Source of the DNA: Clostridia bacterium
Lineage (GTDB): Bacteria > Bacillota > Clostridia > Oscillospirales > Butyricicoccaceae
Reading direction: 5' to 3'
DNA length: 64,000 nucleotides
Assembly (NCBI GenBank): GCA_017559995.1
Contig: JAFYPP010000003.1
Location: forward strand, 1,015-65,014
Shown one piece after another: positions 42,771 to 64,000 of the stretch. Each line of letters starts with the position of its first letter. Position 1 is the stretch's first letter. Both the position numbers and the translations under genes were made by a program. The notes beneath the pieces are model-generated. The model was not told the origin of the DNA. It worked only from the letters and a program-made list of their open reading frames with translations, and made no database searches.

Positions 42771-44300
42771 TTAGTCCTTCAGCAGGGGCAGAGTGATGTC
42801 GTACTTGCTCTCCAGAGCGCTCTCGAAGGGAGCTTCCTTGGAGTACAGGCCGACAGCGGCGGCGCTCTTCTTGATGGGCTGGATGGTACCGGCACCGGCA
42901 ACGCAGCCGCCGGGGCAGCACATACCTTCCAGCAGATAGCCGTTGTACTTACCGGCCTTGGCCAGCATCAGCATCTTCTTACACTCGGACAGACCCTGAG
43001 CGGCAACGACCTTGACCTCACGGCCGGGAGCCAGGTGCTTGGCAGCCTCGACAACGGCAGCGGCAACACCGCCGCCAACGGCGAAGTTACGGGCAACACC
43101 GGAAGCCTCGCACAGGGGGACTTCATCCTCGGCGGGGATGGACTTGAAGTCCACTTCCTTGGCCTCGAACATACCCTGCAGCTCTTCGAAGGTCAGAACG
43201 AAGTCAACGTCGGAACGGACGCTGCGGCGGCTGGCCTCCAGCTTCTTGGCGGAGCAGGGACCGACGAAGGTGATCTTGGCGTCGGGATGCTGGGTCTTCA
43301 GCATACGGGCGGTCAGAACCATGGGAGACATAGCCATGGAAATGTTCATGGCCAGCTCGGGGAACTCCTTTTTGGTCATGACGGACCAGGCGGGGCAGCA
43401 GGAGGTAGCCATGAAGGGCTGATACTCGGGAACTTCACGCAGGAAGTCCTTGGCTTCCTCGATGGTGCACAGGTCGGCGCCGATAGCGACTTCCACCACG
43501 TCGGAGAAGCCCAGCTGTTTCATAGCAGCGGTCAGGCGCTCGGGAGTGGCATCGGGACCAAACTGGCCGTAGAAAGCGGGAGCCACGCAGGCGATGTTGC
43601 GATCGCCCTTCTTGATGGAGTGGATCAGCTGGAAGATCTGGCCCTTATCGGAGATAGCGCCGAAGGGGCAGGAAACCATACACATACCGCAGGACACGCA
43701 CTTGTCGTAGTTGATCTTGGCGCGGCCGTGCTCGTCGGACTCGATGGCGTTCATACCGCAGGCGGCGGCACAGGGACGCTCCTGCTTGATGATGGCGTTG
43801 TAGGGGCAGGCGTTGGCGCACTTGCCGCACTTGATGCACTTGGTCTCATCGATGACGGACTTGCCCTTCACGAAGCTGATAGCGCCCTTGGGGCAGACTT
43901 CGTAGCAGTAGTGAGACAGGCAGCCCTGGCAGCCATCGGTGACATGGTAACGGTTGGTGGGGCAAGCGTTACAAGCGTAGCTGATGATGTTCACCAAGGG
44001 GGGATCATAGTACTTTTCGGCAATGGCGCTCTCGTTGACGCCGTCGGACAGACGGGTGTGCTCGGTGATGGAACGCAGAGGCAGGCCCATAGCCAGACGG
44101 ATGCGCTCGCCAATGATGGCGCGCTCCAGGAAGATGGACTCACGATCCTCGGGCAGCTCGCCGGGAGCGATCTTGTAGGGCAGATCTTCGATACGGGTGT
44201 AGTCGCCGCCCTCATAGGCCAGACGGGCGACCTCGGTGAAGATCTGCTTGCGGTGTGCGGTCATGGAAGTTGCGATACCGCGGGTTTGAGTGAGATTCAT
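42771..44300 (-). CDS. [FeFe] hydrogenase, catalytic type (group-B-like, multi-ferredoxin N-terminus)
   Basis: 509 aa with several CxxCxxCxxxCP ferredoxin motifs. All three H-cluster motifs are canonical: TSCCPAW (L1), GPCSAKKLE (L2) and EGMCCPGGCVAG (L3). Confidence 0.88.
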   Translation of the reverse strand: MNLTQTRGIATSMTAHRKQIFTEVARLAYEGGDYTRIEDLPYKIAPGELPEDRESIFLERAIIGERIRLAMGLPLRSITEHTRLSDGVNESAIAEKYYDPPLVNIISYACNACPTNRYHVTDGCQGCLSHYCYEVCPKGAISFVKGKSVIDETKCIKCGKCANACPYNAIIKQERPCAAACGMNAIESDEHGRAKINYDKCVSCGMCMVSCPFGAISDKGQIFQLIHSIKKGDRNIACVAPAFYGQFGPDATPERLTAAMKQLGFSDVVEVAIGADLCTIEEAKDFLREVPEYQPFMATSCCPAWSVMTKKEFPELAMNISMAMSPMVLTARMLKTQHPDAKITFVGPCSAKKLEASRRSVRSDVDFVLTFEELQGMFEAKEVDFKSIPAEDEVPLCEASGVARNFAVGGGVAAAVVEAAKHLAPGREVKVVAAQGLSECKKMLMLAKAGKYNGYLLEGMCCPGGCVAGAGTIQPIKKSAAAVGLYSKEAPFESALESKYDITLPLLKD

Positions 44301-44332
44301 AGCAATTCCCCTTTATTTTAATCTATAAAAGT

Positions 44333-45511
44333 TTAACACATACTGAGTTTTACGTTTTTGCCAAGTTCAGAAAGTTCCTTTTCCAGAGCTTCCGCAAGGG
44401 CAAGTTTATTCTGGAATGACGAATGACCGGTGTGGTTGGCGGTATTCACGGCGGTGCCGAAGAAAATATTTACATCGGTTGCCTGCTCCAGCAGCAAATA
44501 TGCCAGGCGGGAGGCGCCGTCCTTCCCTTTTTCCAGATCCAGCGTCATCATGCAGTCCTTGCGATAACGACGGATCAGATCCACCGTTGCCTGCAGCGTC
44601 AGGAAACCTTCGGTAACAAGGTCCACACCGTCGATACGGGCCATAGCCGGTACATCCTCGGTAGCGGTATCTTCCTGGCTGTAGACTTCTTTGCCCAGGT
44701 AAGCGGCGACCGTTTTGGCGGTGGTACCGCCGCACACGGCGTGGGCACCTGCCTTGGAGAAGAACAAGCGCATGGTAGCCTGATCATCCTCACGGTTTTC
44801 GGGAGGTCCGATCATCACATTGGCCGCGTATCTGCGGCGAACCTTCAGTGCCAGCACGGTGGCATCGTCATCCGATTCGTCCAGATTGAGGGCCAGCGCC
44901 GCGCGGAGAATGATGGCGGCGATGCGCTGGGGCGACAGGTCTTCCCTGTCGTTCTGCGCGGCAAGGGCAGCGACATCTTCCGAAGGCCAGCCGTCACAGG
45001 TCTTACCCCGTCCGGCCTGGGTAATGCCGTCACTCATGAACAGCAGCAGATCGCCCTCTTCTAGATGCAGCGTGCTCTCGTGGATCTCTTTTTCACCCAC
45101 AAACTGCACGCCGTAGGGAAACCGGGTGGGCTTTCCGTGGCGGATCAGCAGCGCGGGCGGATTATCGTAGCGCGCAAGATACGCGGTCGTACCCTGCAGT
45201 TTCAGCGCGGTAAAAGTGGCGTAGGCCAGTTTCCGTTCCCGGCACATGGGCAGGGTTTCGGAAATGGTCATGATACACTCGTCGATGGGGATGTTTCCCG
45301 CCATCATGGCGGACAGCATTTTTGCGGTGATGGTGGCCAGAATGTTGGCCTTTACACCGCTGCCCATGCCGTCGGACAGCACCACGATGCGCTCATCGCC
45401 CACCGCGTCCTGACACCAGAAGTCACCGCAGATGCTTTCACCGTTTTTGCAGACGCTTGCGGCGCCCAGTTCCAGGACCAGGTCTCCCACGATCAGATTA
45501 TCTCTGTTCAT
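44333..45511 (-). CDS. PP2C/SpoIIE-family serine phosphatase
   Basis: 392 aa from ATG 45511, with a GAGGA SD; the track start is 45523. It has CGDFW...VLSDGMGSGVKANILA and FMSDGITQAG metal-binding blocks, plus a ~170-aa C-terminal domain I cannot assign. The start overlaps the HydS stop by 14 nt. Confidence 0.82.
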   Translation of the reverse strand: MNRDNLIVGDLVLELGAASVCKNGESICGDFWCQDAVGDERIVVLSDGMGSGVKANILATITAKMLSAMMAGNIPIDECIMTISETLPMCRERKLAYATFTALKLQGTTAYLARYDNPPALLIRHGKPTRFPYGVQFVGEKEIHESTLHLEEGDLLLFMSDGITQAGRGKTCDGWPSEDVAALAAQNDREDLSPQRIAAIILRAALALNLDESDDDATVLALKVRRRYAANVMIGPPENREDDQATMRLFFSKAGAHAVCGGTTAKTVAAYLGKEVYSQEDTATEDVPAMARIDGVDLVTEGFLTLQATVDLIRRYRKDCMMTLDLEKGKDGASRLAYLLLEQATDVNIFFGTAVNTANHTGHSSFQNKLALAEALEKELSELGKNVKLSMC

Positions 45512-47198
45512 CTTTGTCCTCATCCATCAAAATGGTGTTTTTCAAATTGTTGACGGCAACCTTGGTCTCTGCCACCGTTTCGCCCAGAAGGCTTGCGATC
45601 TCGTGCGCGATCCGCATCTGCTTTTCCACGATCTCGTCTGCCATGCCCGCGGTGCGGAGCTTGACCTGACGGATCTGATTCTTTTTCTGGCGGCTGCGGG
45701 TCACGTCCTTCATGATGCAGGTGACGATCTCTTTATCTTCATCGCAGATGAAAACCTGCTCCAGATAAACGTTGTAGTCGGAAAGATAGGTGTAGTTCTG
45801 GATCTGCCGTCCGTCGCCGCTGAGCATACGGACAAAGTCAAACTCGTCCAGAATACGGGAAACGGGATATCCGATAATATCCTCCCGGTTGCGAATGGAG
45901 AAGATCTCACAGGCGGCCTCGTTGATTTGCTTCACTTTCAGATCACGGCCAACCGTAACGATCGCGTTGGGAGAAACGCTGACGATCTTGTCGGAATAGG
46001 ATTCCGCCTTGGCCTGCATATAGGGCAGACACATGGTGATATCCGCGCGGCCCAGGAATACGGCGTGGGCCTTTTCACGGCAGGTGGCATAGCCGCACAT
46101 ACCGCAGTTCAGCTCGTCCTCGGGCTTGGTTTTACCCATACGCCGCAGAACATTCTGCAACTGCTCGGCAGAGGGCTCGGGACGGTACACGGGACGGGCG
46201 GTCAGCACGCTCTCCAGATCCACGGTCTCGTCGACTTCGAAATCGGAACCTTCGTTGTCTACGGCAGAGGTCTGCACCACGGCGGAAGAGACGGCAACAC
46301 GGCGATCACGCTTCAGGAAGGCGGGGCCGCCGACACAGGAGCCCTCGCAGGCGGAAACTTCAATGAAGCAGCGCTTCAGTTTGCCGTCCACAGCGTCGCG
46401 AATGGCCTGGATGCAATCCTCCATACCGTCCACAGCCAAATAACGCCAACCGGCTTCGGTCTTCATGGTACGAAGGATACCGCCGGTCACGGGGAACATA
46501 CGGGACAGTTTCGCGTCGGAACTGGCGAACGCCTTGTTCACGTGGATGCCGCTTTCACGCATCCAATCTTCCAGTTCGTCAAAGGTCAGATCGTAATCGG
46601 GGCCGTCGGTACAACCCTGGGGCACCGTTTCGGTCTTTTTGGAAATGCAGGGGCTAAGAAACACCACCGCGGCGCCCGGACAGCGCTGATGGATCAGGCG
46701 GGTCACGGCGCGGAGCGGTGTGGTAACGGGAGCCATAAACGGGATGGCTTCCGGCATATACTTACGGATGTACTGATTGATGGAAGAGCAGCAGGTGGTG
46801 ATCACCGGGCCTTCGATACCGGAGGCAAGAAGCTTTTCGTACTCGCTCTTTACCAGAAAAGCGCCTTCCGCGGTTTCAAACACCTGGGAAAAGCCCAGCT
46901 GCTTCATGGCAGCGGAAAACATCTGCCAGTCGCAGCCGTCGAAATAGGCGGTAAAGGAGGGTGCCACAGCGGCAACCACTTCCCGACCGGAAGCCAGCAG
47001 CTGCCGGATCTCCTGCAGGCTGCTCACGTCCTCCTTGGCATTCTGGGGGCACACCACCGTGCAGCGGCCGCAGAGGATGCAGTCCTCCTCCACGATCTGC
47101 GCCTGCTGGTCAATGACCTGAATGGCCTTCACCGGACAGTTTCGAACGCATTTGTAACAGTTTTTGCAATTTGCCTTTTTGAACTTCAGGATCCCCAT
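45498..47198 (-). CDS. hydS: Sensory-type [FeFe] hydrogenase-like protein with C-terminal PAS domain (HydS, group C)
   Basis: 566 aa with two N-terminal 4Fe-4S motifs (CKNCYKCVRNCP, CILCGRCTVVCP). The H-domain motifs are modified: TTCCSSI (L1), SPCISKKTE (L2) and EVSACEGSCVGG (L3). There is an extra CGMCGYATC cluster and a PAS-like C-terminus (SPNAIVTVGRDLKVKQINEAACEIF). Confidence 0.85.
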   Translation of the reverse strand: MGILKFKKANCKNCYKCVRNCPVKAIQVIDQQAQIVEEDCILCGRCTVVCPQNAKEDVSSLQEIRQLLASGREVVAAVAPSFTAYFDGCDWQMFSAAMKQLGFSQVFETAEGAFLVKSEYEKLLASGIEGPVITTCCSSINQYIRKYMPEAIPFMAPVTTPLRAVTRLIHQRCPGAAVVFLSPCISKKTETVPQGCTDGPDYDLTFDELEDWMRESGIHVNKAFASSDAKLSRMFPVTGGILRTMKTEAGWRYLAVDGMEDCIQAIRDAVDGKLKRCFIEVSACEGSCVGGPAFLKRDRRVAVSSAVVQTSAVDNEGSDFEVDETVDLESVLTARPVYRPEPSAEQLQNVLRRMGKTKPEDELNCGMCGYATCREKAHAVFLGRADITMCLPYMQAKAESYSDKIVSVSPNAIVTVGRDLKVKQINEAACEIFSIRNREDIIGYPVSRILDEFDFVRMLSGDGRQIQNYTYLSDYNVYLEQVFICDEDKEIVTCIMKDVTRSRQKKNQIRQVKLRTAGMADEIVEKQMRIAHEIASLLGETVAETKVAVNNLKNTILMDEDKDEQR

Positions 47199-47213
47199 GG
47201 TGAGACCCTCCTT

Positions 47214-47861
47214 TTAAGATTGGCTGCGGATGATTCCCTGCAGCTGATGGGCAAGCATTGCCAGCGAAGAAGAAAGATCTTCGTTACGAACGATTACGTT
47301 CTCGGGTATGCGGAGCTGAACGGGCGCAAAGTTCCAAATGGCCAGGATGCCGGCTGATACCAGCTGATCGCAAACAGCCTGCGCCTGATCGGCGGGAACG
47401 GTGATGATGCCGATGCGGATATGCATCCGTCTGCAAAGATCCACCATCCGCCGCACGGAAAACACCGGCTTATCGTGGATCGACAACCCATCCAGGGCGT
47501 CGTTGCGGTCAAAGGCGGCCACAATATGAACACCGCAATGGTCAAAACCGGGGTTGCCCAAAAGCGCATGGCCAAGGGAACCAACGCCGACCAAAACGGC
47601 GTCATCCACATTTCGGTATCCAAGATAGGTTTCCATGTTGTCGATCAGGTCGCTGATCAGAAATCCGGTACGGGGTTTTCCGGGAGTTGTGCTCATCAAA
47701 GACAGTTCTTTGCGGACCTGAACCTCATTCAAACCCAACTGCCGTGCTACCACAGGCGCGGTAACAAAGACGCTTCCCTGTTTCTGCAATTCTTTCAAGT
47801 AAAGCAGATAGCGCGGGAGCCGCTTCAACGCTTGTTCCGATATGGCAACGGCTTTGGTCAT
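47214..47861 (-). CDS. rex: Redox-sensing transcriptional repressor Rex
   Basis: 215 aa from ATG 47861, with a GGAGG SD 6 nt upstream. It has a winged helix (RLPRYLLYLKEL...VTAPVVARQLGL) and an NADH-binding Rossmann motif (LVGVGSLGHALL). Confidence 0.92.
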   Translation of the reverse strand: MTKAVAISEQALKRLPRYLLYLKELQKQGSVFVTAPVVARQLGLNEVQVRKELSLMSTTPGKPRTGFLISDLIDNMETYLGYRNVDDAVLVGVGSLGHALLGNPGFDHCGVHIVAAFDRNDALDGLSIHDKPVFSVRRMVDLCRRMHIRIGIITVPADQAQAVCDQLVSAGILAIWNFAPVQLRIPENVIVRNEDLSSSLAMLAHQLQGIIRSQS

Positions 47862-48150
47862 GGAAACCTCCAATCAGTATATTTTTACCGATACAGTATA
47901 CCGCAAAATGGCGCGGTTTGTCAATTGCTTTGATACAAGTCTGTATTAAATATGTATTAATTAAATAAAAACGTTTTCCTATCGAGTAAGCGTTTTGTAG
48001 GTTATTTCACGCATTTTTGGAAATGTGCGGAAAATTTTCCTGTTATATCCGCTATTCCTTGAAAATTGGCACTCTTTTCGGCTTTTTTCGCACGAAAAGT
48101 TCGTCCGCGTTTACCTTCGCCAGTTATTTCCAATATCGTGTGTTTTTCTC

Positions 48151-48219: not shown

Positions 48220-48945
48220 GTGTCCAAAATGCGAAAAATCTATCTGGCGCGCTTCATTTTCCGCTGCCTGACGCTGCTTGCGATGACAAGCCTTATCTTT
48301 CTGGCCCCCAAACAGTTTGAACCCTTCTATCCGGGCCGTTTCTTTGCAAAGCCTACGCTTCTGCACCTTTTGTGGATCGTTTGGATCATGGATATGCTGT
48401 CCCAGTTGATTCCTTCCGGCAAGGCCGTTACCGCCCTGGGATCCCAGAAATCCTTCCGCATCCATTTTCGCCGGGCCGCCACCCCGCTCTCCCCTGCCGG
48501 ACTTGCGCAAAGAGCGAAAGCCGCTGCCAAGCGTGCCTATGTGGTGTTCCTCATTTGGTGCGTGCTGACCGCCGCTCTTGGCATTCTGCACGGGAAAGGC
48601 ATTCTGGGCGACCTCGCGCTGTTATGGGTAACCACCTTTTTCTACGTTTGTGACCTGATCTGCGTCCTGTTCTGGTGCCCTTTCCGTCATTTTATCATGA
48701 AAAACCGCTGCTGTACCACCTGCCGTATTTTCAACTGGGACCATCTGATGATGTTCAGTCCCCTGCTGTTTGTGGACGGCTTCTTTGCACGCAGCTTGTT
48801 CCTTCTTTCCGTCGTGGTCTTTCTGGTGTGGGAGATCACGGTGCTCCGCCATCCCGAGCGGTTTGACGAAGGCGCCAACGACGCCCTCAAGTGCGGCCAA
48901 TGCACCGATCGGCTGTGCGTCAATGCAAAAAAGATCCACGGATGA
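48220..48945 (+). CDS. Hypothetical polytopic membrane protein with Cys motifs
   Basis: 241 aa with a GTG start and a GGGAGA SD. It has about 5-6 hydrophobic segments and the motifs CPFRHFIMKNRCCTTC and CGQCTDRLC. I recognise no family. Confidence 0.6.
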   Translation: MSKMRKIYLARFIFRCLTLLAMTSLIFLAPKQFEPFYPGRFFAKPTLLHLLWIVWIMDMLSQLIPSGKAVTALGSQKSFRIHFRRAATPLSPAGLAQRAKAAAKRAYVVFLIWCVLTAALGILHGKGILGDLALLWVTTFFYVCDLICVLFWCPFRHFIMKNRCCTTCRIFNWDHLMMFSPLLFVDGFFARSLFLLSVVVFLVWEITVLRHPERFDEGANDALKCGQCTDRLCVNAKKIHG

Positions 48946-48976
48946 CAAAAAAGCCCTCTTGCGAGGGCTTTTTTTA
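48946..48976. terminator. Bidirectional terminator (membrane protein / GTPase-NYN gene)
   Basis: An A-run, then AGCCCTC-TTGC-GAGGGCT, then a T-run, between convergent stops. Confidence 0.85.
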
Positions 48977-51598
48977 TTTCTTCTTTGTCATTTCGCGGAC
49001 AGTACTGCCCTTCATGGCACGGTTGCGATACTTCTGCACGATCTCGTCGATCTCCAGATGGGTGTTGCGGATCTCGCTGAGGAAAATATTGGCCGGTACC
49101 CGCGTGGCACCATGGCCCAGAATGATCAGCTGTTCCATGCCGTCAGAGGTGGCTACCCGAACACGGTACTGCTTGCGCATATCGTAGGTGGCCTTTTCGA
49201 TAAAGGCGTCGGCAGTTTCGGCCTCCTTGGTGTAGACGATGTGGATGTTTTTATATTTCTCCACCGAACCGGGATTGCCCTTCACTTTGTAGGCGTCGAA
49301 CACCAGAATCACGCCGCACTTGCGGTAGCCCTGATAGTTGCTCAAAAGATCGGCCAGCGACTGCCGCGCGGCCTCCAGACTTTCGGCCGCCAGCGACTTC
49401 AACTCGTCCCATGCAAAAATGATATTGTAACCGTCCACCAGAAGGTATTCAGGCAGCATCGTTACCGGCGTATGCTTAACCGATTTATGGCTCTCCGCCC
49501 GCACCTCGGGCGTACGCTGGACAAACTCCCGGCGCTTGACGGCACCGTAGGTACGCTCAAAGATCGCCTGCAGTTCCTTGTCCTCTTCCACCGTACCGCG
49601 ATAGGCGCTTGCGGAAGCCGACACGGTGACCACGGGCGTCTCTTCTTCCATTCTGGCAGCGGGCCGCAGACCGCTCTCCAGATGCATATGCTGCTCCACT
49701 TCGTACCAGGGCACGATCACACCGGCACCGTGGCTGCAGAATACCGAATCGGCAGAGTTCTCGGTGTCGGCGTCCACGTCGTAGGCTATAGCCTCCACCA
49801 CGGCCTGCTGCTGGGCGCACGCCTCGTACCGACCCGGCCAACAGGAAAGACGGCCGCGGCCGCGGGTATAGGCCGCCAGTTCAGACTGGTAACCGCGCAT
49901 GGCGGCCACCGGCGCGCTGCCGGTCAGCAAGGCCCGGTCTCCTACCTGCTCGGGGCTTTCACAGGTGCCGTTTTTCTGCTGAATATCGGTCATGGCACGG
50001 CCCACGCACTCAACGGGCAGTTCCATGGAAAAGTCGTAATAAGGCTCCAGAAGGATGCTTTCCGCCTTGCGCAGACCGTGCCGCACGGCACGGTAGGTGG
50101 CCTGACGGAAATCGCCGCCCTCGGTGTGCTTTACATGGGCACGGCCGCTGAGGATGGAGATCCGCACGTCGGTAATGGGTGAGCCGGTCAGCACGCCCAC
50201 ATGCTGTTTTTCCTCCAGATGGGTGAGGATCAGCCGCTGCCAGTTGAGATCCAGATCGTCGGTGCCGCAGGACGAGTCAAAGACCAAACCGCTGCCACGG
50301 GGGCCGGGCTCCAGCAGCAGATGCACCTCGGCGTAATGACGCAGCGGCTCGAAGTGTCCCACGCCCTCCACGGGAGCGGCGATGGTTTCCTTGTAAACCA
50401 CGCTGCCCTGACCAAAGGAAACATCCATGGAAAAGCGCTCTTTGATCTGCCGCTGCAGCACTTCCAGCTGCACCTCGCCCATCAGCTGCACCTGCACCTC
50501 ACGCAGACGCTCATCCCACAGGATGTGCAATTGGGGATCCTCTTCCTCCAGCTGGCGCAGCTTTCGCATGGTCTCCGGGATATTGCAGTCCTTCGGAAGA
50601 TCCATCCGATAGGTCAGCACCGGTTCCAGAAGGGGTGCCTGTGCCGCGGCTTCGGCACCCAGGCCCTGCCCCGGGAAGGTAAGCTCCAACCCGGTGACGG
50701 CACAGACCGAGCCGGCTTCCACCACCTCGGCCTGCTTGTATTTGGCGCCCGAATAGATGCGCAGCTGATCGGCCTTTTCCGACCACTCGCCGCCGCTTCC
50801 CATCCCGGAAAGCAGGCTCTTCACCCGCAGCTGACCGCCGGTGACCTTGAGATAGGTCAGCCGGGTGCCCTGAGTATCCCGGGCGATCTTATAGACCCGT
50901 GCCGCGAACTCTGTCGGATAGGCGGGCCTTACGGTCAGCCCGGACAGATCGCCCAGCAGCTCCTCGACGCCCTCCAGCTTGAGGGCCGAGCCAAATCTGC
51001 AGGGGAAAGCCTTTCGCCGCGCGATCACCCCGGCAAGGTCATCGGCGGAAAGATCCCCGTCCTCCAGATAGCGTTCCAAAAGCCGCTCGTCGCACAGCGA
51101 GAACGCCTCTGCCCGTTCATCGGGCGGGGCGTCCATATCGATGCATTTATCGGACAGACGGCTCTGCAGTTCCGTGAGGATGGCAGGCTTGTCCGCGCCC
51201 GCCAGATCCATCTTATTGACGAACAGAAAGGTCGGTATTTTGTACCGCCGCAGCAGCCGCCAAAGGGTCTCCGTGTGGCTTTGCACACCGTCGGTGCCGG
51301 AGATCACCAGGATGGCGTAATCCAGCACCTGCAGGGTGCGCTCCATTTCGGCGGAAAAATCCACGTGCCCCGGGGTGTCCATCAGGGTGATCTCCACCTC
51401 CGGCAGGGGCAGCACCGCCTGTTTGGAAAAGATGGTGATGCCCCGCTCCCGCTCCAGATTGTTGTGGTCGAGAAAGGCGTCCCTGTGATCCACCCGGCCC
51501 AGCTTGTTGATGCTGCCGCTCAAATAGAGCATACCCTCGGAAAGGGTCGTCTTGCCCGCGTCAACATGGGCCAGGATGCCGATCACAAGTTTCTTCAT
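48974..51598 (-). CDS. TetM/EF-G-like translational GTPase fused to a C-terminal YacP/Rae1-type NYN nuclease domain
   Basis: 874 aa. G1 AHVDAGKT, G2 RGITI, G3 DTPGH and G4 NKMD are present, followed by regions colinear with EF-G/TetM domains II-V (about aa 1-640). After a linker, aa ~716-858 carry LLVDGYN, VFDA, ETAD..IEK and VATSD, the YacP/Rae1 blocks. SD AGGAGA is present. Confidence 0.85.
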   Translation of the reverse strand: MKKLVIGILAHVDAGKTTLSEGMLYLSGSINKLGRVDHRDAFLDHNNLERERGITIFSKQAVLPLPEVEITLMDTPGHVDFSAEMERTLQVLDYAILVISGTDGVQSHTETLWRLLRRYKIPTFLFVNKMDLAGADKPAILTELQSRLSDKCIDMDAPPDERAEAFSLCDERLLERYLEDGDLSADDLAGVIARRKAFPCRFGSALKLEGVEELLGDLSGLTVRPAYPTEFAARVYKIARDTQGTRLTYLKVTGGQLRVKSLLSGMGSGGEWSEKADQLRIYSGAKYKQAEVVEAGSVCAVTGLELTFPGQGLGAEAAAQAPLLEPVLTYRMDLPKDCNIPETMRKLRQLEEEDPQLHILWDERLREVQVQLMGEVQLEVLQRQIKERFSMDVSFGQGSVVYKETIAAPVEGVGHFEPLRHYAEVHLLLEPGPRGSGLVFDSSCGTDDLDLNWQRLILTHLEEKQHVGVLTGSPITDVRISILSGRAHVKHTEGGDFRQATYRAVRHGLRKAESILLEPYYDFSMELPVECVGRAMTDIQQKNGTCESPEQVGDRALLTGSAPVAAMRGYQSELAAYTRGRGRLSCWPGRYEACAQQQAVVEAIAYDVDADTENSADSVFCSHGAGVIVPWYEVEQHMHLESGLRPAARMEEETPVVTVSASASAYRGTVEEDKELQAIFERTYGAVKRREFVQRTPEVRAESHKSVKHTPVTMLPEYLLVDGYNIIFAWDELKSLAAESLEAARQSLADLLSNYQGYRKCGVILVFDAYKVKGNPGSVEKYKNIHIVYTKEAETADAFIEKATYDMRKQYRVRVATSDGMEQLIILGHGATRVPANIFLSEIRNTHLEIDEIVQKYRNRAMKGSTVREMTKKK
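49025..49453 (-). other. NYN (YacP/Rae1-like) ribonuclease domain within the GTPase fusion
   Basis: The segment LPEYLLVDGYNIIFAWDELK...CGVILVFDAYKVKG...IHIVYTKEAETADAFIEKA...VRVATSDGMEQLIILGHGA keeps the acidic residues expected for a PIN/NYN active site. Confidence 0.75.
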
Positions 51599-51616
51599 GG
51601 GTTTCTCCTAACGTGA

Positions 51617-63050: not shown

Positions 63051-63086
63051 TTACTTGTTTGAAATTTTACTTTGGAGGAAGATACA

Positions 63087-64000
63087 ATGGTTCGCAATGA
63101 TCTGAGAAACATCGCTATCATTGCCCACGTCGACCACGGCAAAACGACGCTGGTGGATGAGATGCTCAAACAGGGCGGTGTCTACCGTGAAAACCAGGCC
63201 GTCGTCGACCGCGTGATGGATTCCAACGATCTGGAGCGTGAGCGCGGCATCACCATCCTGGCAAAGAACACTGCCGTTCATTACAAGGACACCAAGATCA
63301 ACATCGTGGACACCCCCGGCCACGCCGACTTCGGCGGCGAGGTGGAGCGTATCCTCAAGATGGTCAACGGCGTTATCCTGCTGGTAGACGCCGCGGAAGG
63401 CCCCATGCCCCAGACTCGCTTCGTTTTGAGCAAGGCTCTGGAACTGGGCCACCGTGTTATCGTGGTGGTCAACAAGATCGACCGCCCCGACCAGCGCATC
63501 CACGAGGTGGTGGATGAGGTTCTGGAACTGCTGCTGGACCTGAACGCCACCGAGGATCAGTTCGATTCTCCCATGCTGTTCTGCTCCGGCCGTCAGGGTA
63601 CCGCTTCCTATTCCCCCGACTCCGCCGGCACCGATCTGCGCCCCCTGTTCGACACCATCATGGAATACATTCCCGCCCAGGAGGTGGAGCCCGAGGCCCC
63701 CTTCCAGATGCTGGTCTCCTCCATCGACTATAACGAGTTCGTCGGCCGTATCGCCATCGGCCGCATCGAGCGCGGTACCATCAAGCAGAACCAGGAGATC
63801 GTGGTCTGCAACTATCACGCCCCCGAACAGGTCAGCAAGAAGTGTAAAGCGGTTTCTCTTTACACCTTTGACGGTCTGGGCCGCACCCCCGTTACCGAGG
63901 CCTCTGCCGGCAACATTATCGCTATGAGCGGTATCGGCGACATCAGCATCGGCGACACCATCTGCGCTCCCACCGACGTGGAGCCTCTGCCCTTCGTAAA
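63087..64000 (+). CDS. typA: Translational GTPase TypA/BipA (3'-truncated by window end)
   Basis: My own translation from ATG 63087 (SD GGAGGA 7 nt upstream) gives MVRNDLRNIAIIAHVDHGKTTLVDEMLKQGG...DSNDLERERGITILAK...VDTPGHADFGGEVER. It is open to the window end and absent from the ORF track because there is no stop. Confidence 0.93.
   Translation, partial: MVRNDLRNIAIIAHVDHGKTTLVDEMLKQGGVYRENQAVVDRVMDSNDLERERGITILAKNTAVHYKDTKINIVDTPGHADFGGEVERILKMVNGVILLVDAAEGPMPQTRFVLSKALELGHRVIVVVNKIDRPDQRIHEVVDEVLELLLDLNATEDQFDSPMLFCSGRQGTASYSPDSAGTDLRPLFDTIMEYIPAQEVEPEAPFQMLVSSIDYNEFVGRIAIGRIERGTIKQNQEIVVCNYHAPEQVSKKCKAVSLYTFDGLGRTPVTEASAGNIIAMSGIGDISIGDTICAPTDVEPLPFV

What the first reader, a model, noticed from the sequence alone, without database searches (positions are those of the whole stretch)
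48974..51598. TetM/EF-G-like ribosomal GTPase fused in-frame to a Rae1/YacP-type NYN endoribonuclease domain
What the sequence shows:
- One uninterrupted 874-aa ORF.
- Residues 1 to ~640 carry an intact translational GTPase (AHVDAGKT, RGITI, DTPGH, NKMD).
- These residues are colinear with ribosomal-protection / EF-G-like proteins through domains II-V.
- After a ~75-aa linker, residues ~716-858 (nt 49025-49453) read LLVDGYNIIFAW, VILVFDAY, KEAETADAFIEK, VRVATSDG. These are the conserved acidic blocks I recall from B. subtilis YacP/Rae1.

Established knowledge:
- EF-G/Tet(M)-family factors place domain IV at the ribosomal A site.
- Rae1 is a translation-dependent endonuclease that cuts mRNA in the A site (B. 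subtilis work by the Condon laboratory, recalled from memory).

Inference: the fusion would be a GTPase-delivered A-site nuclease. Possible roles are stalled-ribosome mRNA clearance, stress-triggered translation shut-off, or abortive-infection-type defence.

I know of no experimental description of this architecture.

The domain-IV tip region here (SGRAHVKHTEGGDFRQ) lacks the YSPVS-type loop I recall in Tet(M). It should therefore not be read as a tetracycline-resistance gene.
Basis: partly seen in the sequence, partly recalled or inferred. Interest (0 to 1): 0.85.

Follow-up and report, generated by a model that had tools for sequence, protein, structure and literature searches.

The report
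Ribosome GTPase fused to Rae1 nuclease
A real, widely conserved gene of gut Clostridia joins an EF-G-like ribosome-binding GTPase to a Rae1-type RNA-cutting domain; the architecture was catalogued in 2015 and 2017 but I found no experimental test of it, and it may show how this nuclease is brought to stalled ribosomes.

Summary
Window 48974-51598 (- strand) is one uninterrupted 874-aa ORF. It has intact GTPase motifs, EF-G domains III-V and a C-terminal NYN_YacP domain (163 bits against a cutoff of 24.6). The domain aligns to B. subtilis Rae1 and keeps its catalytic aspartates. It is not an assembly artefact: 80 genomes and at least 150 clusters at 50% identity carry the same fusion.

The architecture is not new. 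Atkinson 2015 and Matelska 2017 both noted it, and I found no experimental study.

What I add:
- The GTPase half is neither Tet(M) nor EF-G. It is about 30% identical to each and falls below every NCBIfam cutoff.
- It belongs to a distinct subfamily. That subfamily has its own near-invariant domain-IV tip loops and a roughly 45-aa extension after domain V.
- The subfamily also exists unfused in Lactobacillaceae.
- The nuclease hangs on a poorly conserved tether that is never shorter than 74 residues.
- The gene is solitary and chromosomal, and it has no defence-system hits.

Rae1 is now placed 12 nt upstream of the A site, on collided ribosomes.

Most likely function: a GTPase-targeted mRNA nuclease for stalled or collided ribosomes. 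This is inferred, not shown.

The parts
48974..51598 (-). Complete 874-aa ORF (stop codon 48974-48976): translational GTPase joined to a NYN nuclease
   Evidence: a 100% identical protein is in NCBI (P0001)
51605..51609 (-). Shine-Dalgarno AGGAG, 6 nt before the ATG. The upstream PIG-L gene stops 18 nt before the ATG.
   Evidence: read directly from the sequence
50951..51589 (-). G domain (residues 4-216) with G1 AHVDAGKT, G2 RGITI, G3 DTPGH (catalytic His78) and G4 NKMD
   Evidence: GTP_EFTU, E 4.7e-49; motifs retained in most of 119 divergent representatives
50639..50914 (-). Domain II beta-barrel (residues ~229-320)
   Evidence: strands 232-314 in the AlphaFold model; EF-G_D2 Pfam hits in relatives
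50411..50626 (-). Domain III (residues ~325-396)
   Evidence: EFG_III 343-396
50060..50407 (-). Domain IV (residues 398-513), the most conserved part of the family
   Evidence: EFG_IV; mean column identity 0.84, against 0.75 for the G domain and 0.73 for NYN
50306..50365 (-). Domain-IV tip loop signature GVGHFEPLRHYAEVHLLLEP (412-431). It is 4 residues shorter than the EF-G loop and differs from Tet's HIEVPPNPFWAS.
50087..50146 (-). Domain-IV tip loop signature GRAHVKHTEGGDFRQATYRA (485-504), at the position of Tet(M) loop III (YYSPVS) and of EF-G's SYHDVDSSE
   Evidence: the importance of Tet(M) loop III is from PMC4750697
49808..50053 (-). Domain V (residues 516-597)
   Evidence: EFG_C, E 2.6e-18
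49676..49807 (-). Subfamily-specific extension after domain V (598-641; ...DxENxxDSVFCSHGAGxxVPW...MH). It is absent from Tet and EF-G and present in both the fused and unfused forms.
   Evidence: modelled as a beta-hairpin 618-629 plus a helix 631-637
49445..49675 (-). Tether (642-718): poorly conserved and predicted to be disordered, except for one conserved helix, ELQAIFERTYG (675-685, nt 49544-49576)
   Evidence: identity 0.46; pLDDT below 50 at 646-668 and 683-715, helix 670-683; length 74-206 aa, median 92, in 248 proteins
49010..49444 (-). Rae1/YacP-type NYN endoribonuclease domain (719-863) with D722, D768, D797 and D819
   Evidence: D722 and D797 correspond to Rae1 D7 and D81 (D7N D81N catalytic mutant, PMC10351889); the four Asp are kept in 144-146 of 147 aligned sequences
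48947..48974 (.). Palindromic GC-rich hairpin flanked by an A-run and a T-run: a probable bidirectional terminator shared with the convergent gene 48220-48945

Best explanation
The gene encodes a ribosome-dependent GTPase that carries its own Rae1-type mRNA endonuclease on a flexible leash.

Shown here:
- The GTPase belongs to an unnamed EF-G/Tet-related subfamily.
- Both halves keep every catalytic residue.
- The tip of domain IV is the most strongly conserved part of the protein.
- The leash is never shorter than 74 residues.
- The gene is solitary, chromosomal and widespread in Clostridia.
- The same GTPase exists without the nuclease in Lactobacillaceae.

Inferred mechanism:
1. In its GTP form, the factor docks in the ribosomal factor-binding site, as EF-G and Tet(M) do.
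2. Its private domain-IV loops probe the decoding centre or A site, so that only a stuck ribosome is accepted. This could be a trailing ribosome that cannot translocate because it has collided with a stalled one, or a stalled ribosome with an accessible A site.
3. Docking holds the tethered NYN domain next to exposed mRNA. The likely site is near the mRNA entry side of the bound ribosome, which in a disome faces the tail of the stalled ribosome, where free Rae1 is known to cut.
4. Cleavage yields a truncated mRNA. The upstream ribosomes are rescued by tmRNA and the message is degraded.
5. GTP hydrolysis releases the factor.
For: - Domain content, scores and fold: Pfam hits; homology to the Rae1 crystal structure at E 6e-25; EF-G fold over about 680 aligned columns at Foldseek E 5e-52.
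- Catalytic residues: G1-G4 motifs and His78 are present. The Rae1 catalytic pair D7/D81 maps to D722/D797, and these plus D768 and D819 are kept in 144-146 of 147 aligned sequences (146 divergent representatives plus the query).
- Selection acts on the part that would contact the decoding centre: domain IV has the highest conservation (0.84), with two near-invariant tip loops.
- The tether varies in length (74-206 aa), is poorly conserved and is predicted to be disordered, as expected for a leash and not a rigid joint.
- The fusion is ancient and stable: 80 of 80 loci kept; all of the best 150 representatives at 50% identity are fusions; no split genes.
- The GTPase module also exists on its own. 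Unfused proteins are 47-58% identical to fused ones (mean 54%) and share the same signatures. The two forms group together in 100 of 100 NJ bootstraps.
- Free Rae1 is a translation-dependent mRNA nuclease. It cuts 12 nt upstream of the A site of a stalled ribosome and feeds tmRNA rescue of collided ribosomes (PMC12407103; PMC13622287).
Against: - There is no biochemical, genetic or structural datum on any member of this family. Ribosome binding, GTPase activity, nuclease activity and the substrate are all inferred from homology.
- The AlphaFold models give no reliable placement of the NYN domain (pTM 0.50, NYN pLDDT about 45-55; C-terminal model pLDDT 54.7).
- A long leash leaves the geometry unconstrained. 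The A site, the mRNA entry channel, the inter-ribosome mRNA and even rRNA are all within reach.
- I could not establish whether genomes with the fusion also keep a free Rae1.
- No neighbouring gene gives functional context.
Confidence: 0.5

Rival explanations
1. It is a ribosome-directed RNase whose target is rRNA or tRNA, not mRNA. The GTPase docks and the NYN domain cuts 16S or 23S rRNA or a bound tRNA, for ribosome maturation, decommissioning or stress-induced shutdown.
For: [quoted passage not shown]
- Standalone yacP always lies next to rRNA-processing genes (mrnC, rlmB).
- The leash could reach rRNA elements around the factor site.
Against: The only experimentally characterised member of the NYN_YacP family, B. 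subtilis Rae1, cuts mRNA in a translation-dependent way. The fused gene has left the rlmB-sigH neighbourhood.
Confidence: 0.2
2. It is a tetracycline ribosomal-protection protein, as NCBI names it, possibly with an accessory nuclease.
For: - NCBI names it 'TetM/TetW/TetO/TetS family tetracycline resistance ribosomal protection protein'.
- The best NCBIfam model is tet_protect.
- It is colinear with Tet(O) residues 1-602 in a single alignment stretch.
Against: - The score is 404.7 against a cutoff of 775, and all specific Tet models fall far below their cutoffs.
- It is only about 30% identical to Tet(M/O/W), the same as to EF-G.
- Both Tet domain-IV loops, including the functionally key loop III, are replaced.
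- It is chromosomal, with no leader peptide and no conserved mobile-element neighbours.
- On the sampled tree the fused proteins form one clade (97 of 100 bootstraps), and there is no sign of the patchy, mobile-element-borne spread of tet genes. Congruence with the species tree was not tested.
Confidence: 0.03
3. It is an anti-phage or abortive-infection effector that shuts down translation by cutting RNA on ribosomes when triggered.
For: The Rae1 preprint speculates that stall-triggered cleavage could act against phage mRNA. Nuclease-NTPase fusions are common in defence systems (general knowledge).
Against: - There is no significant PADLOC hit; the best is E 0.007 to a TIR-like model.
- No neighbour is conserved in more than 9 of 75 loci.
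- The surrounding genes are housekeeping and the GC content matches the flanks.
- The family is conserved like a core gene.
- The only 'phage' records carrying it are UNVERIFIED faecal metagenome scaffolds.
Confidence: 0.07
4. The NYN domain has lost its nuclease role and serves only as an RNA- or ribosome-binding anchor for a GTPase with another job, such as ribosome splitting or recycling.
For: The GTPase module functions without any NYN domain in Lactobacillaceae, so it has an activity of its own.
Against: All four active-site aspartates and the DGYN, ETAD and TSD blocks are kept across the whole family. That is not expected for a domain that is no longer catalytic.
Confidence: 0.08
5. It is an assembly or frameshift artefact that joins two adjacent genes.
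For: None found.
Against: The same uninterrupted fusion occurs in 80 independent genomes, including complete isolate genomes. No split version occurs in 1.2 Mb of related loci. The ten sequences published in 2015 show the same fusion.
Confidence: 0.01

Closest known systems
Clostridial 'Tet'-NYN_YacP fusion proteins catalogued by Atkinson 2015 (BMC Genomics, Additional file 8) and Matelska et al. 2017 (NAR)
   Same: The architecture and the private sequence signatures are identical: GHFEPLRHYAEVHL, KHTEGGDFRQATYRAVRQGL, SVFCxHGxG, LLVDGYNI, E/QTAD and ATSD. The published examples come from Ruminococcus albus, Eubacterium rectale, C. thermocellum and Desulfitobacterium hafniense, among others.
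   Different: Nothing essential; this protein is a further member. Those papers filed the GTPase as 'Tet' or 'TetM-like' and ran no experiments. Here the GTPase is shown to be a separate subfamily that has unfused members.
Bacillus subtilis Rae1/YacP (PDB 5MQ8), a ribosome-associated endoribonuclease
   Same: The C-terminal domain is homologous over Rae1 residues 3-149 (E 6e-25) and has the catalytic D7/D81 equivalents. It probably also cuts mRNA on stalled or collided ribosomes.
   Different: Rae1 is a free 170-aa protein encoded in the rlmB-rae1-sigH cluster, and it binds ribosomes only transiently. Here the domain is permanently tethered to a factor-site GTPase and the gene lies elsewhere.
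Elongation factor G
   Same: The five-domain fold, the intact G motifs and the histidine of the second domain-IV loop are shared.
   Different: - About 30% identity, and below all EF-G model cutoffs.
- The GGRGQ tip of the first domain-IV loop is deleted.
- It is about 80 aa shorter in the G' region.
- It is not in the rpsG-fusA-tuf operon.
- It has an extra extension after domain V.
Tet(M)/Tet(O)/Tet(W) ribosomal protection proteins
   Same: The overall length of the GTPase part is similar, the two are colinear, and tet_protect is the best-scoring NCBIfam model.
   Different: About 30% identity. Loop III (YYSPVS) and the HIEVPPNPFWAS loop are replaced. The C-terminal extension is different. 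The gene is chromosomal and not mobile.
SmrB (E. coli) and Cue2 (yeast), nucleases recruited to collided ribosomes
   Same: The proposed outcome is the same: endonucleolytic cleavage of mRNA at stalled or collided ribosomes, feeding rescue pathways.
   Different: The folds are unrelated (SMR domain). Recruitment is through the disome interface or ubiquitin, not through a translational GTPase.

Membership tests
Catalogued clostridial trGTPase-NYN_YacP fusion family (Atkinson 2015; Matelska 2017) | A single polypeptide with GTP_EFTU, EFG_III/IV/C and a C-terminal NYN_YacP domain | tested here: met
   the same architecture is precomputed for all 120 closest clusters
Catalogued clostridial trGTPase-NYN_YacP fusion family (Atkinson 2015; Matelska 2017) | Sequence signatures shared with the ten published members | tested here: met
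   The sequences of Additional file 8 carry the same domain-IV, post-V and NYN motifs found here.
Rae1/YacP NYN endoribonucleases | Pfam NYN_YacP above the gathering score, and homology to the Rae1 structure | tested here: met
   163.1 bits against 24.6; 5MQ8/5MQ9 at E 6e-25
Rae1/YacP NYN endoribonucleases | Catalytic aspartates D7 and D81 (D7N D81N is inactive) | tested here: met
   D722 and D797 align to D7 and D81 and are conserved in 145 of 147 aligned sequences.
Rae1/YacP NYN endoribonucleases | A free single-domain protein of ~170 aa encoded between rlmB and sigH | tested here: not met
   Here it is the C-terminal domain of an 874-aa protein lying between a PIG-L gene and a membrane-protein gene. 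The standalone context is seen.
Rae1/YacP NYN endoribonucleases | Translation-dependent cleavage of mRNA upstream of stalled ribosomes | not testable with these tools
   Needs biochemistry or genetics.
Tetracycline ribosomal protection proteins | Score above the NCBIfam tet_protect equivalog cutoff | tested here: not met
   404.7 against 775; TetM/W model 257.8 against 1100
Tetracycline ribosomal protection proteins | Domain-IV loop III (L505-Y-Y-S508-P-V510), which displaces tetracycline | tested here: not met
   Alignment with real Tet(M), Tet(O) and Tet(W): GLYYSPVSTPADF against GRAHVKHTEGGDF. The role of the loop is from PMC4750697.
Tetracycline ribosomal protection proteins | Carried on mobile elements, with a patchy distribution | tested here: not met
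   No conserved neighbours and no mobile-element genes. Among plasmid records, only two large replicons (252 and 518 kb) of Clostridia carry it.
Tetracycline ribosomal protection proteins | Confers tetracycline resistance | not testable with these tools
   An MIC assay is needed.
Elongation factor G | Score above the EF-G model cutoffs | tested here: not met
   TIGR00484 288 against 659.4; NF009381 327.3 against 583
Elongation factor G | Five-domain EF-G fold with intact G1-G4 motifs | tested here: met
Elongation factor G | First domain-IV loop with the GGRGQ tip that contacts the codon-anticodon helix | tested here: not met
   A 4-residue deletion: EF-G RQ(S/T)GGRGQYG against EPLRHYA
Known anti-phage defence systems (PADLOC) | A significant match to a defence-protein model, and a defence-island context | tested here: not met
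   The best hit has E 0.007 and no stretch that passes on its own. The neighbours are housekeeping genes.

The most novel reading that the evidence does not exclude
The fusion is a Rosetta stone for a dedicated bacterial sensor of stalled ribosomes. Under this reading, the unnamed GTPase subfamily (private domain-IV loops plus the extension after domain V) is the factor that recognises stuck or collided ribosomes and brings Rae1 to them. It would act covalently in Oscillospirales, Lachnospirales and related Clostridia, where the fusion might be the only Rae1. It would act in trans in Lactobacillaceae, which have the unfused GTPase and where at least Latilactobacillus has a free YacP. That would amount to a GTPase-gated no-go-decay pathway in bacteria. 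A GDPNP-locked, nuclease-dead fusion would give the first stable ribosome-bound Rae1 complex for cryo-EM.
Probability: 0.25. Interest if true: 0.8.

Novelty: new member of a known kind. Interest (0 to 1): 0.5.

Why it matters
How Rae1 finds stalled or collided ribosomes is an explicitly open question. A September 2026 preprint states that no ribosome-bound Rae1 structure exists because the interaction is transient. A natural protein in which the same nuclease is covalently tied to a factor-site GTPase does two things:
- It points to where on the ribosome the nuclease works.
- It offers a way to trap the complex, using a non-hydrolysable GTP analogue and nuclease-dead mutations.

The gene is also common in abundant human and animal gut Clostridia. 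It is routinely auto-annotated as a Tet(M)-family tetracycline-resistance gene or as EF-G, which can inflate resistome counts. Finally, the GTPase half, together with its unfused Lactobacillaceae relatives, is a translational-GTPase subfamily that no curated NCBIfam model covers.

Tried and rejected
- **Co-occurrence of the fusion with a free Rae1.** I scanned the window and 80 loci (1.2 Mb) with an NYN HMM and found only fused copies, but this is not whole-genome evidence. I then searched with a profile of four standalone YacPs. The listed top 120 hits were all Bacillaceae, Peptostreptococcaceae or Latilactobacillus, so the question stays open.
- **Conserved gene neighbourhood.** Clustering the ORFs within 6 kb of the gene in 75 loci gave no partner present in more than 9 loci. 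The unfused gene has no yacP neighbour either.
- **Structure prediction.** The full-length model is good only for the GTPase half. The C-terminal model was poor (pLDDT 54.7) and I did not use it, so no docking or inter-domain geometry is claimed.
- **Taxonomy of distant family members.** Cluster look-up returned almost no names.
- **Extra domains in long variants (993-1156 aa).** There are none. The extra length comes from insertions in the G domain or from longer tethers.
- **Defence role.** PADLOC gave nothing significant.
- **Phage carriage.** The only hits are UNVERIFIED faecal metagenome scaffolds and small unannotated Listeria or Enterococcus 'phage' records, which look like bacterial DNA.
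- **Literature.** Eight full-text searches found no experimental work on the fusion. Leroy 2017 and Condon 2018 (on the distribution of Rae1) are not held in the library, so I could not check whether they mention it.


Full report
**1. The observation**

Window 48974-51598 on the minus strand is a single uninterrupted ORF of 874 codons. It has an AGGAG ribosome-binding site 6 nt before the ATG, and a palindromic terminator-like hairpin at its 3' end.

Pfam places the domains as follows:
- GTP_EFTU at residues 4-216 (E 4.7e-49)
- EFG_III at 343-396
- EFG_IV at 398-513
- EFG_C at 516-597
- NYN_YacP at 719-863 (E 7.5e-48, 163 bits against a gathering score of 24.6)

The last 171 residues match the crystal-structure sequence of B. 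subtilis YacP/Rae1 (5MQ8/5MQ9) over Rae1 residues 3-149 at E 6e-25. The AlphaFold model of the first ~640 residues is confident and matches EF-G structures over about 680 alignment columns.

**2. Not an artefact, and not rare**

A 100% identical protein is already in NCBI, from a Clostridia MAG, and the 120 closest clusters (68-100% identity) all have the same five-domain content.

A scan of one genome per species returned 582 tblastn-positive stretches. The 80 best, which were kept, are all full-length fusions. They come from Oscillospiraceae, Lachnospiraceae, Ruminococcaceae and relatives, including cultured Flavonifractor plautii ATCC 29863, Ruminococcus callidus ATCC 27760, Intestinimonas massiliensis and Coprococcus eutactus.

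An HMM of the NYN domain found 82 hits in the window plus these loci (1.2 Mb). Every hit lay in a reading frame of at least 600 aa, so there are no split versions and no second YacP nearby.

An exhaustive search of 1.84 billion representatives at 50% identity, using residues 398-874, gave 827 proteins at E <= 1e-30. All of the best 150 match from domain IV through the NYN domain, and the 150th still scores 367 bits. The family is therefore large and old.

**3. Already catalogued**

[quoted passage not shown] Those sequences carry exactly the signatures found here.

Matelska et al. 2017 (PMC5499597) also noted a 'TetM-NYN_YacP fusion' in some Clostridia and called its role unclear.

Eight full-text searches found no experimental work on it. 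Two Condon-laboratory papers that might mention it are not held in the library. The architecture is known; its function is untested as far as I could see.

**4. What the GTPase half really is**

It fails every curated NCBIfam cutoff:
- tet_protect: 404.7 against 775
- TetM/W family: 257.8 against 1100
- EF-G TIGR00484: 288 against 659

I fetched genuine Tet(M), Tet(O), Tet(W) and S. aureus EF-G from annotated plasmid records and aligned them.
- At Tet(M) loop III, the loop that displaces tetracycline (PMC4750697), Tet proteins read GLYYSPVSTPADF, EF-G reads GSYHDVDSSEMAF, and this family reads GRAHVKHTEGGDF.
- At the other tip loop, Tet has HIEVPPNPFWAS, EF-G has FSRQSGGRGQYGDV, and the family has GHFE--PLR----HYAEV. 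That is four residues shorter than EF-G and lacks the GGRGQ tip.

The NCBI product name is misleading.

**5. An unfused sister group**

A tblastn search against plasmids unexpectedly found proteins of ~644 aa on Ligilactobacillus salivarius megaplasmids that are 45-47% identical over residues 1-641/659. The pairwise alignment shows the same private signatures: EGVGHFEPLRHYSEVHLLLEPG, HTVGGDFRQA, and a ~45-aa extension after domain V (...ENTPQSVFCSHGAGYTVDW...MH). Tet and EF-G lack all of these.

A search with this protein shows the unfused form is chromosomal and widespread in Lactobacillaceae: Companilactobacillus, Levilactobacillus, Paucilactobacillus, Lactiplantibacillus and Pediococcus. 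It is annotated variously as EF-G, TetM or GTP-binding protein, and it also falls below all NCBIfam cutoffs.

Over 589 columns of the GTPase part, fused and unfused proteins are 54% identical on average, and each is about 30% identical to both Tet and EF-G. In NJ bootstraps the fused and unfused proteins group together 100 times out of 100, the fused clade alone 97 times and the unfused clade 100 times.

The unfused proteins end 5-20 residues after the shared ...MAHxxY motif, which is exactly where the fusion's tether begins. So the GTPase is an autonomous module of a distinct, unnamed subfamily of translational GTPases. The Clostridia version has captured a Rae1 domain.

**6. Anatomy of the fusion across the family**

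Mean column identity by region, over 75 orthologues that are 57-64% identical to the query:

| Region | Mean column identity |
|---|---|
| Domain IV | 0.84 |
| G domain | 0.75 |
| NYN | 0.73 |
| Domain III | 0.71 |
| Domain V | 0.70 |
| Post-V extension | 0.69 |
| Domain II | 0.67 |
| Tether 642-718 | 0.46 |

- Domain IV contains two near-invariant tip stretches, at 412-431 and 485-504.
- The tether is predicted to be disordered (pLDDT below 50), apart from one helix at 670-683 that coincides with the conserved motif ELQAIFERTYG.
- The distance from the SVFCxHGAG motif to the start of the NYN domain is 74-206 residues, with a median of 92, in 248 proteins. It is never short.
- The validated Rae1 catalytic pair D7/D81 (D7N D81N mutant, PMC10351889) corresponds to D722/D797. 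Together with D768 and D819, these are kept in 144-146 of 147 aligned sequences.
- GTPase motifs, including the catalytic His of DTPGH, are kept in nearly all representatives.

**7. Genomic context**

The neighbours here are housekeeping genes:
- a PIG-L family deacetylase, ending 18 nt upstream and probably co-transcribed in this genome
- a Rex repressor
- a PAS-containing [FeFe]-hydrogenase-like protein, a SpoIIE-type phosphatase and an [FeFe]-hydrogenase
- NagB, a ROK kinase and RidA

GC content matches the flanks. Across 75 loci, no neighbouring family is present in more than 9. PADLOC gives nothing significant. Among plasmid records, only two large replicons of Clostridia carry the fusion. 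The 'phage' hits are UNVERIFIED faecal metagenome scaffolds. By contrast, standalone yacP/rae1 always sits between rlmB and sigH. This is a solitary core-type gene, not a resistance cassette or a defence island.

**8. Mechanism**

A September 2026 preprint shows that Rae1 generates the tmRNA substrates when ribosomes collide. It also states that no ribosome-bound structure exists and that the mode of recognition is unknown (PMC13622287).

Putting this together with the anatomy, my best-supported model is that the GTP form docks in the factor-binding site and the private domain-IV loops test the decoding centre. It accepts only a stuck ribosome, and the tethered NYN domain then cuts nearby exposed mRNA. 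It follows from established ribosome architecture that the mRNA entry side of a trailing ribosome adjoins the tail of the stalled one. SMR-domain factors contact uS3 of the collided ribosome and uS7/uS11 of the stalled one. A leash of at least 74 residues could therefore reach the site where free Rae1 cuts.

These steps are inference. Nothing about ribosome binding, GTP hydrolysis, cleavage or substrate has been measured. I give the model 0.5. The main rival is rRNA or tRNA as the target, at 0.2. Tetracycline resistance, a defence role, a non-catalytic NYN domain and an artefact are all unlikely, for the reasons given under each rival.

**9. What remains open**

I could not determine whether genomes with the fusion also keep a free Rae1. 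That is the most informative missing fact. The structure models do not place the NYN domain. The taxonomy of the most divergent members is unknown.

**10. Verdict**

It is not novel as an architecture, and it rests on an outdated A-site premise.

The protein is a new member of a family that was catalogued but never characterised. Interest is moderate (0.5). A specialist would not be surprised that the fusion exists. However, recent Rae1 work makes it a timely, directly testable handle on how this nuclease is targeted. The finding that the GTPase is a distinct subfamily with unfused relatives sharpens that test.

Noticed in passing
L081:5986-7920 (Ligilactobacillus salivarius plasmid NZ_CP117984.1, 127181-129115); also P0271-P0390: An unfused orthologue (~640-660 aa) of the GTPase half is widespread and chromosomal in Lactobacillaceae. 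It has the same domain-IV signatures and post-V extension. It is annotated inconsistently as EF-G, TetM or GTP-binding protein and falls below all NCBIfam cutoffs.
   Followed up: yes
L081:5529-5798; L083:10236-11309; L086:506-1819: The unfused GTPase gene lies next to, or within about 6 kb of, other ribosome-related genes: an rpsN (S14) paralogue in L. salivarius, an RsgA-type GTPase in Levilactobacillus, and HflX about 6 kb away in Companilactobacillus. The pattern is not consistent across genera and may be coincidence.
   Followed up: partly
window 48974-51598 and its database relatives: NCBI names this protein and many relatives 'TetM/TetW/TetO/TetS family tetracycline resistance ribosomal protection protein', although it scores about half the tet_protect cutoff and lacks the Tet loops. 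This is a likely source of false tetracycline-resistance calls in gut resistome surveys.
   Followed up: partly
L082:5397-8024 (MT835563.1, 'UNVERIFIED: Bacteriophage sp.' from human faeces): A record in the phage collection carries a full 875-aa fusion ORF. A second record (MT835514.1) has a weaker match. Both are unannotated metagenomic scaffolds and are probably bacterial DNA rather than phage genomes.
   Followed up: partly
P0167 (1156 aa), P0136 (1069 aa), P0164, P0148: Some family members are 120-280 aa longer. They have no extra Pfam domain. In P0167 the GTP_EFTU match spans residues 3-520, which implies a ~300-aa insertion inside the G domain. Others have tethers of up to 206 aa.
   Followed up: partly
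window 42771-47873 (- strand): A cluster of four genes: an [FeFe]-hydrogenase, a SpoIIE-type phosphatase, a hydrogenase-like protein with Fe-S and PAS domains (sensory type), and a Rex redox repressor. It looks like a redox- or H2-sensing regulatory unit and is unrelated to the finding.
   Followed up: no
window 48220-48945 (+ strand): A convergent 241-aa ORF with several hydrophobic segments, a C-terminal Cys-rich stretch and no Pfam match. It shares the palindromic terminator at 48947-48974 with the fusion gene.
   Followed up: no
window 63072-64000 (+ strand): The window ends inside another translational GTPase gene whose N-terminus (IAIIAHVDHGKTTLVDEMLKQ) looks like TypA/BipA. The genome therefore encodes several EF-G-family paralogues.
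   Followed up: no
L093:1-5390 (C. difficile), L095, L096: Several records filed as plasmids in PLSDB carry core chromosomal operons (cysS-mrnC-thyX-rlmB-yacP-sigH-tuf; rpsG-fusA-tuf in S. aureus L091). They appear to be chromosome fragments or chromids rather than true plasmids.
   Followed up: no
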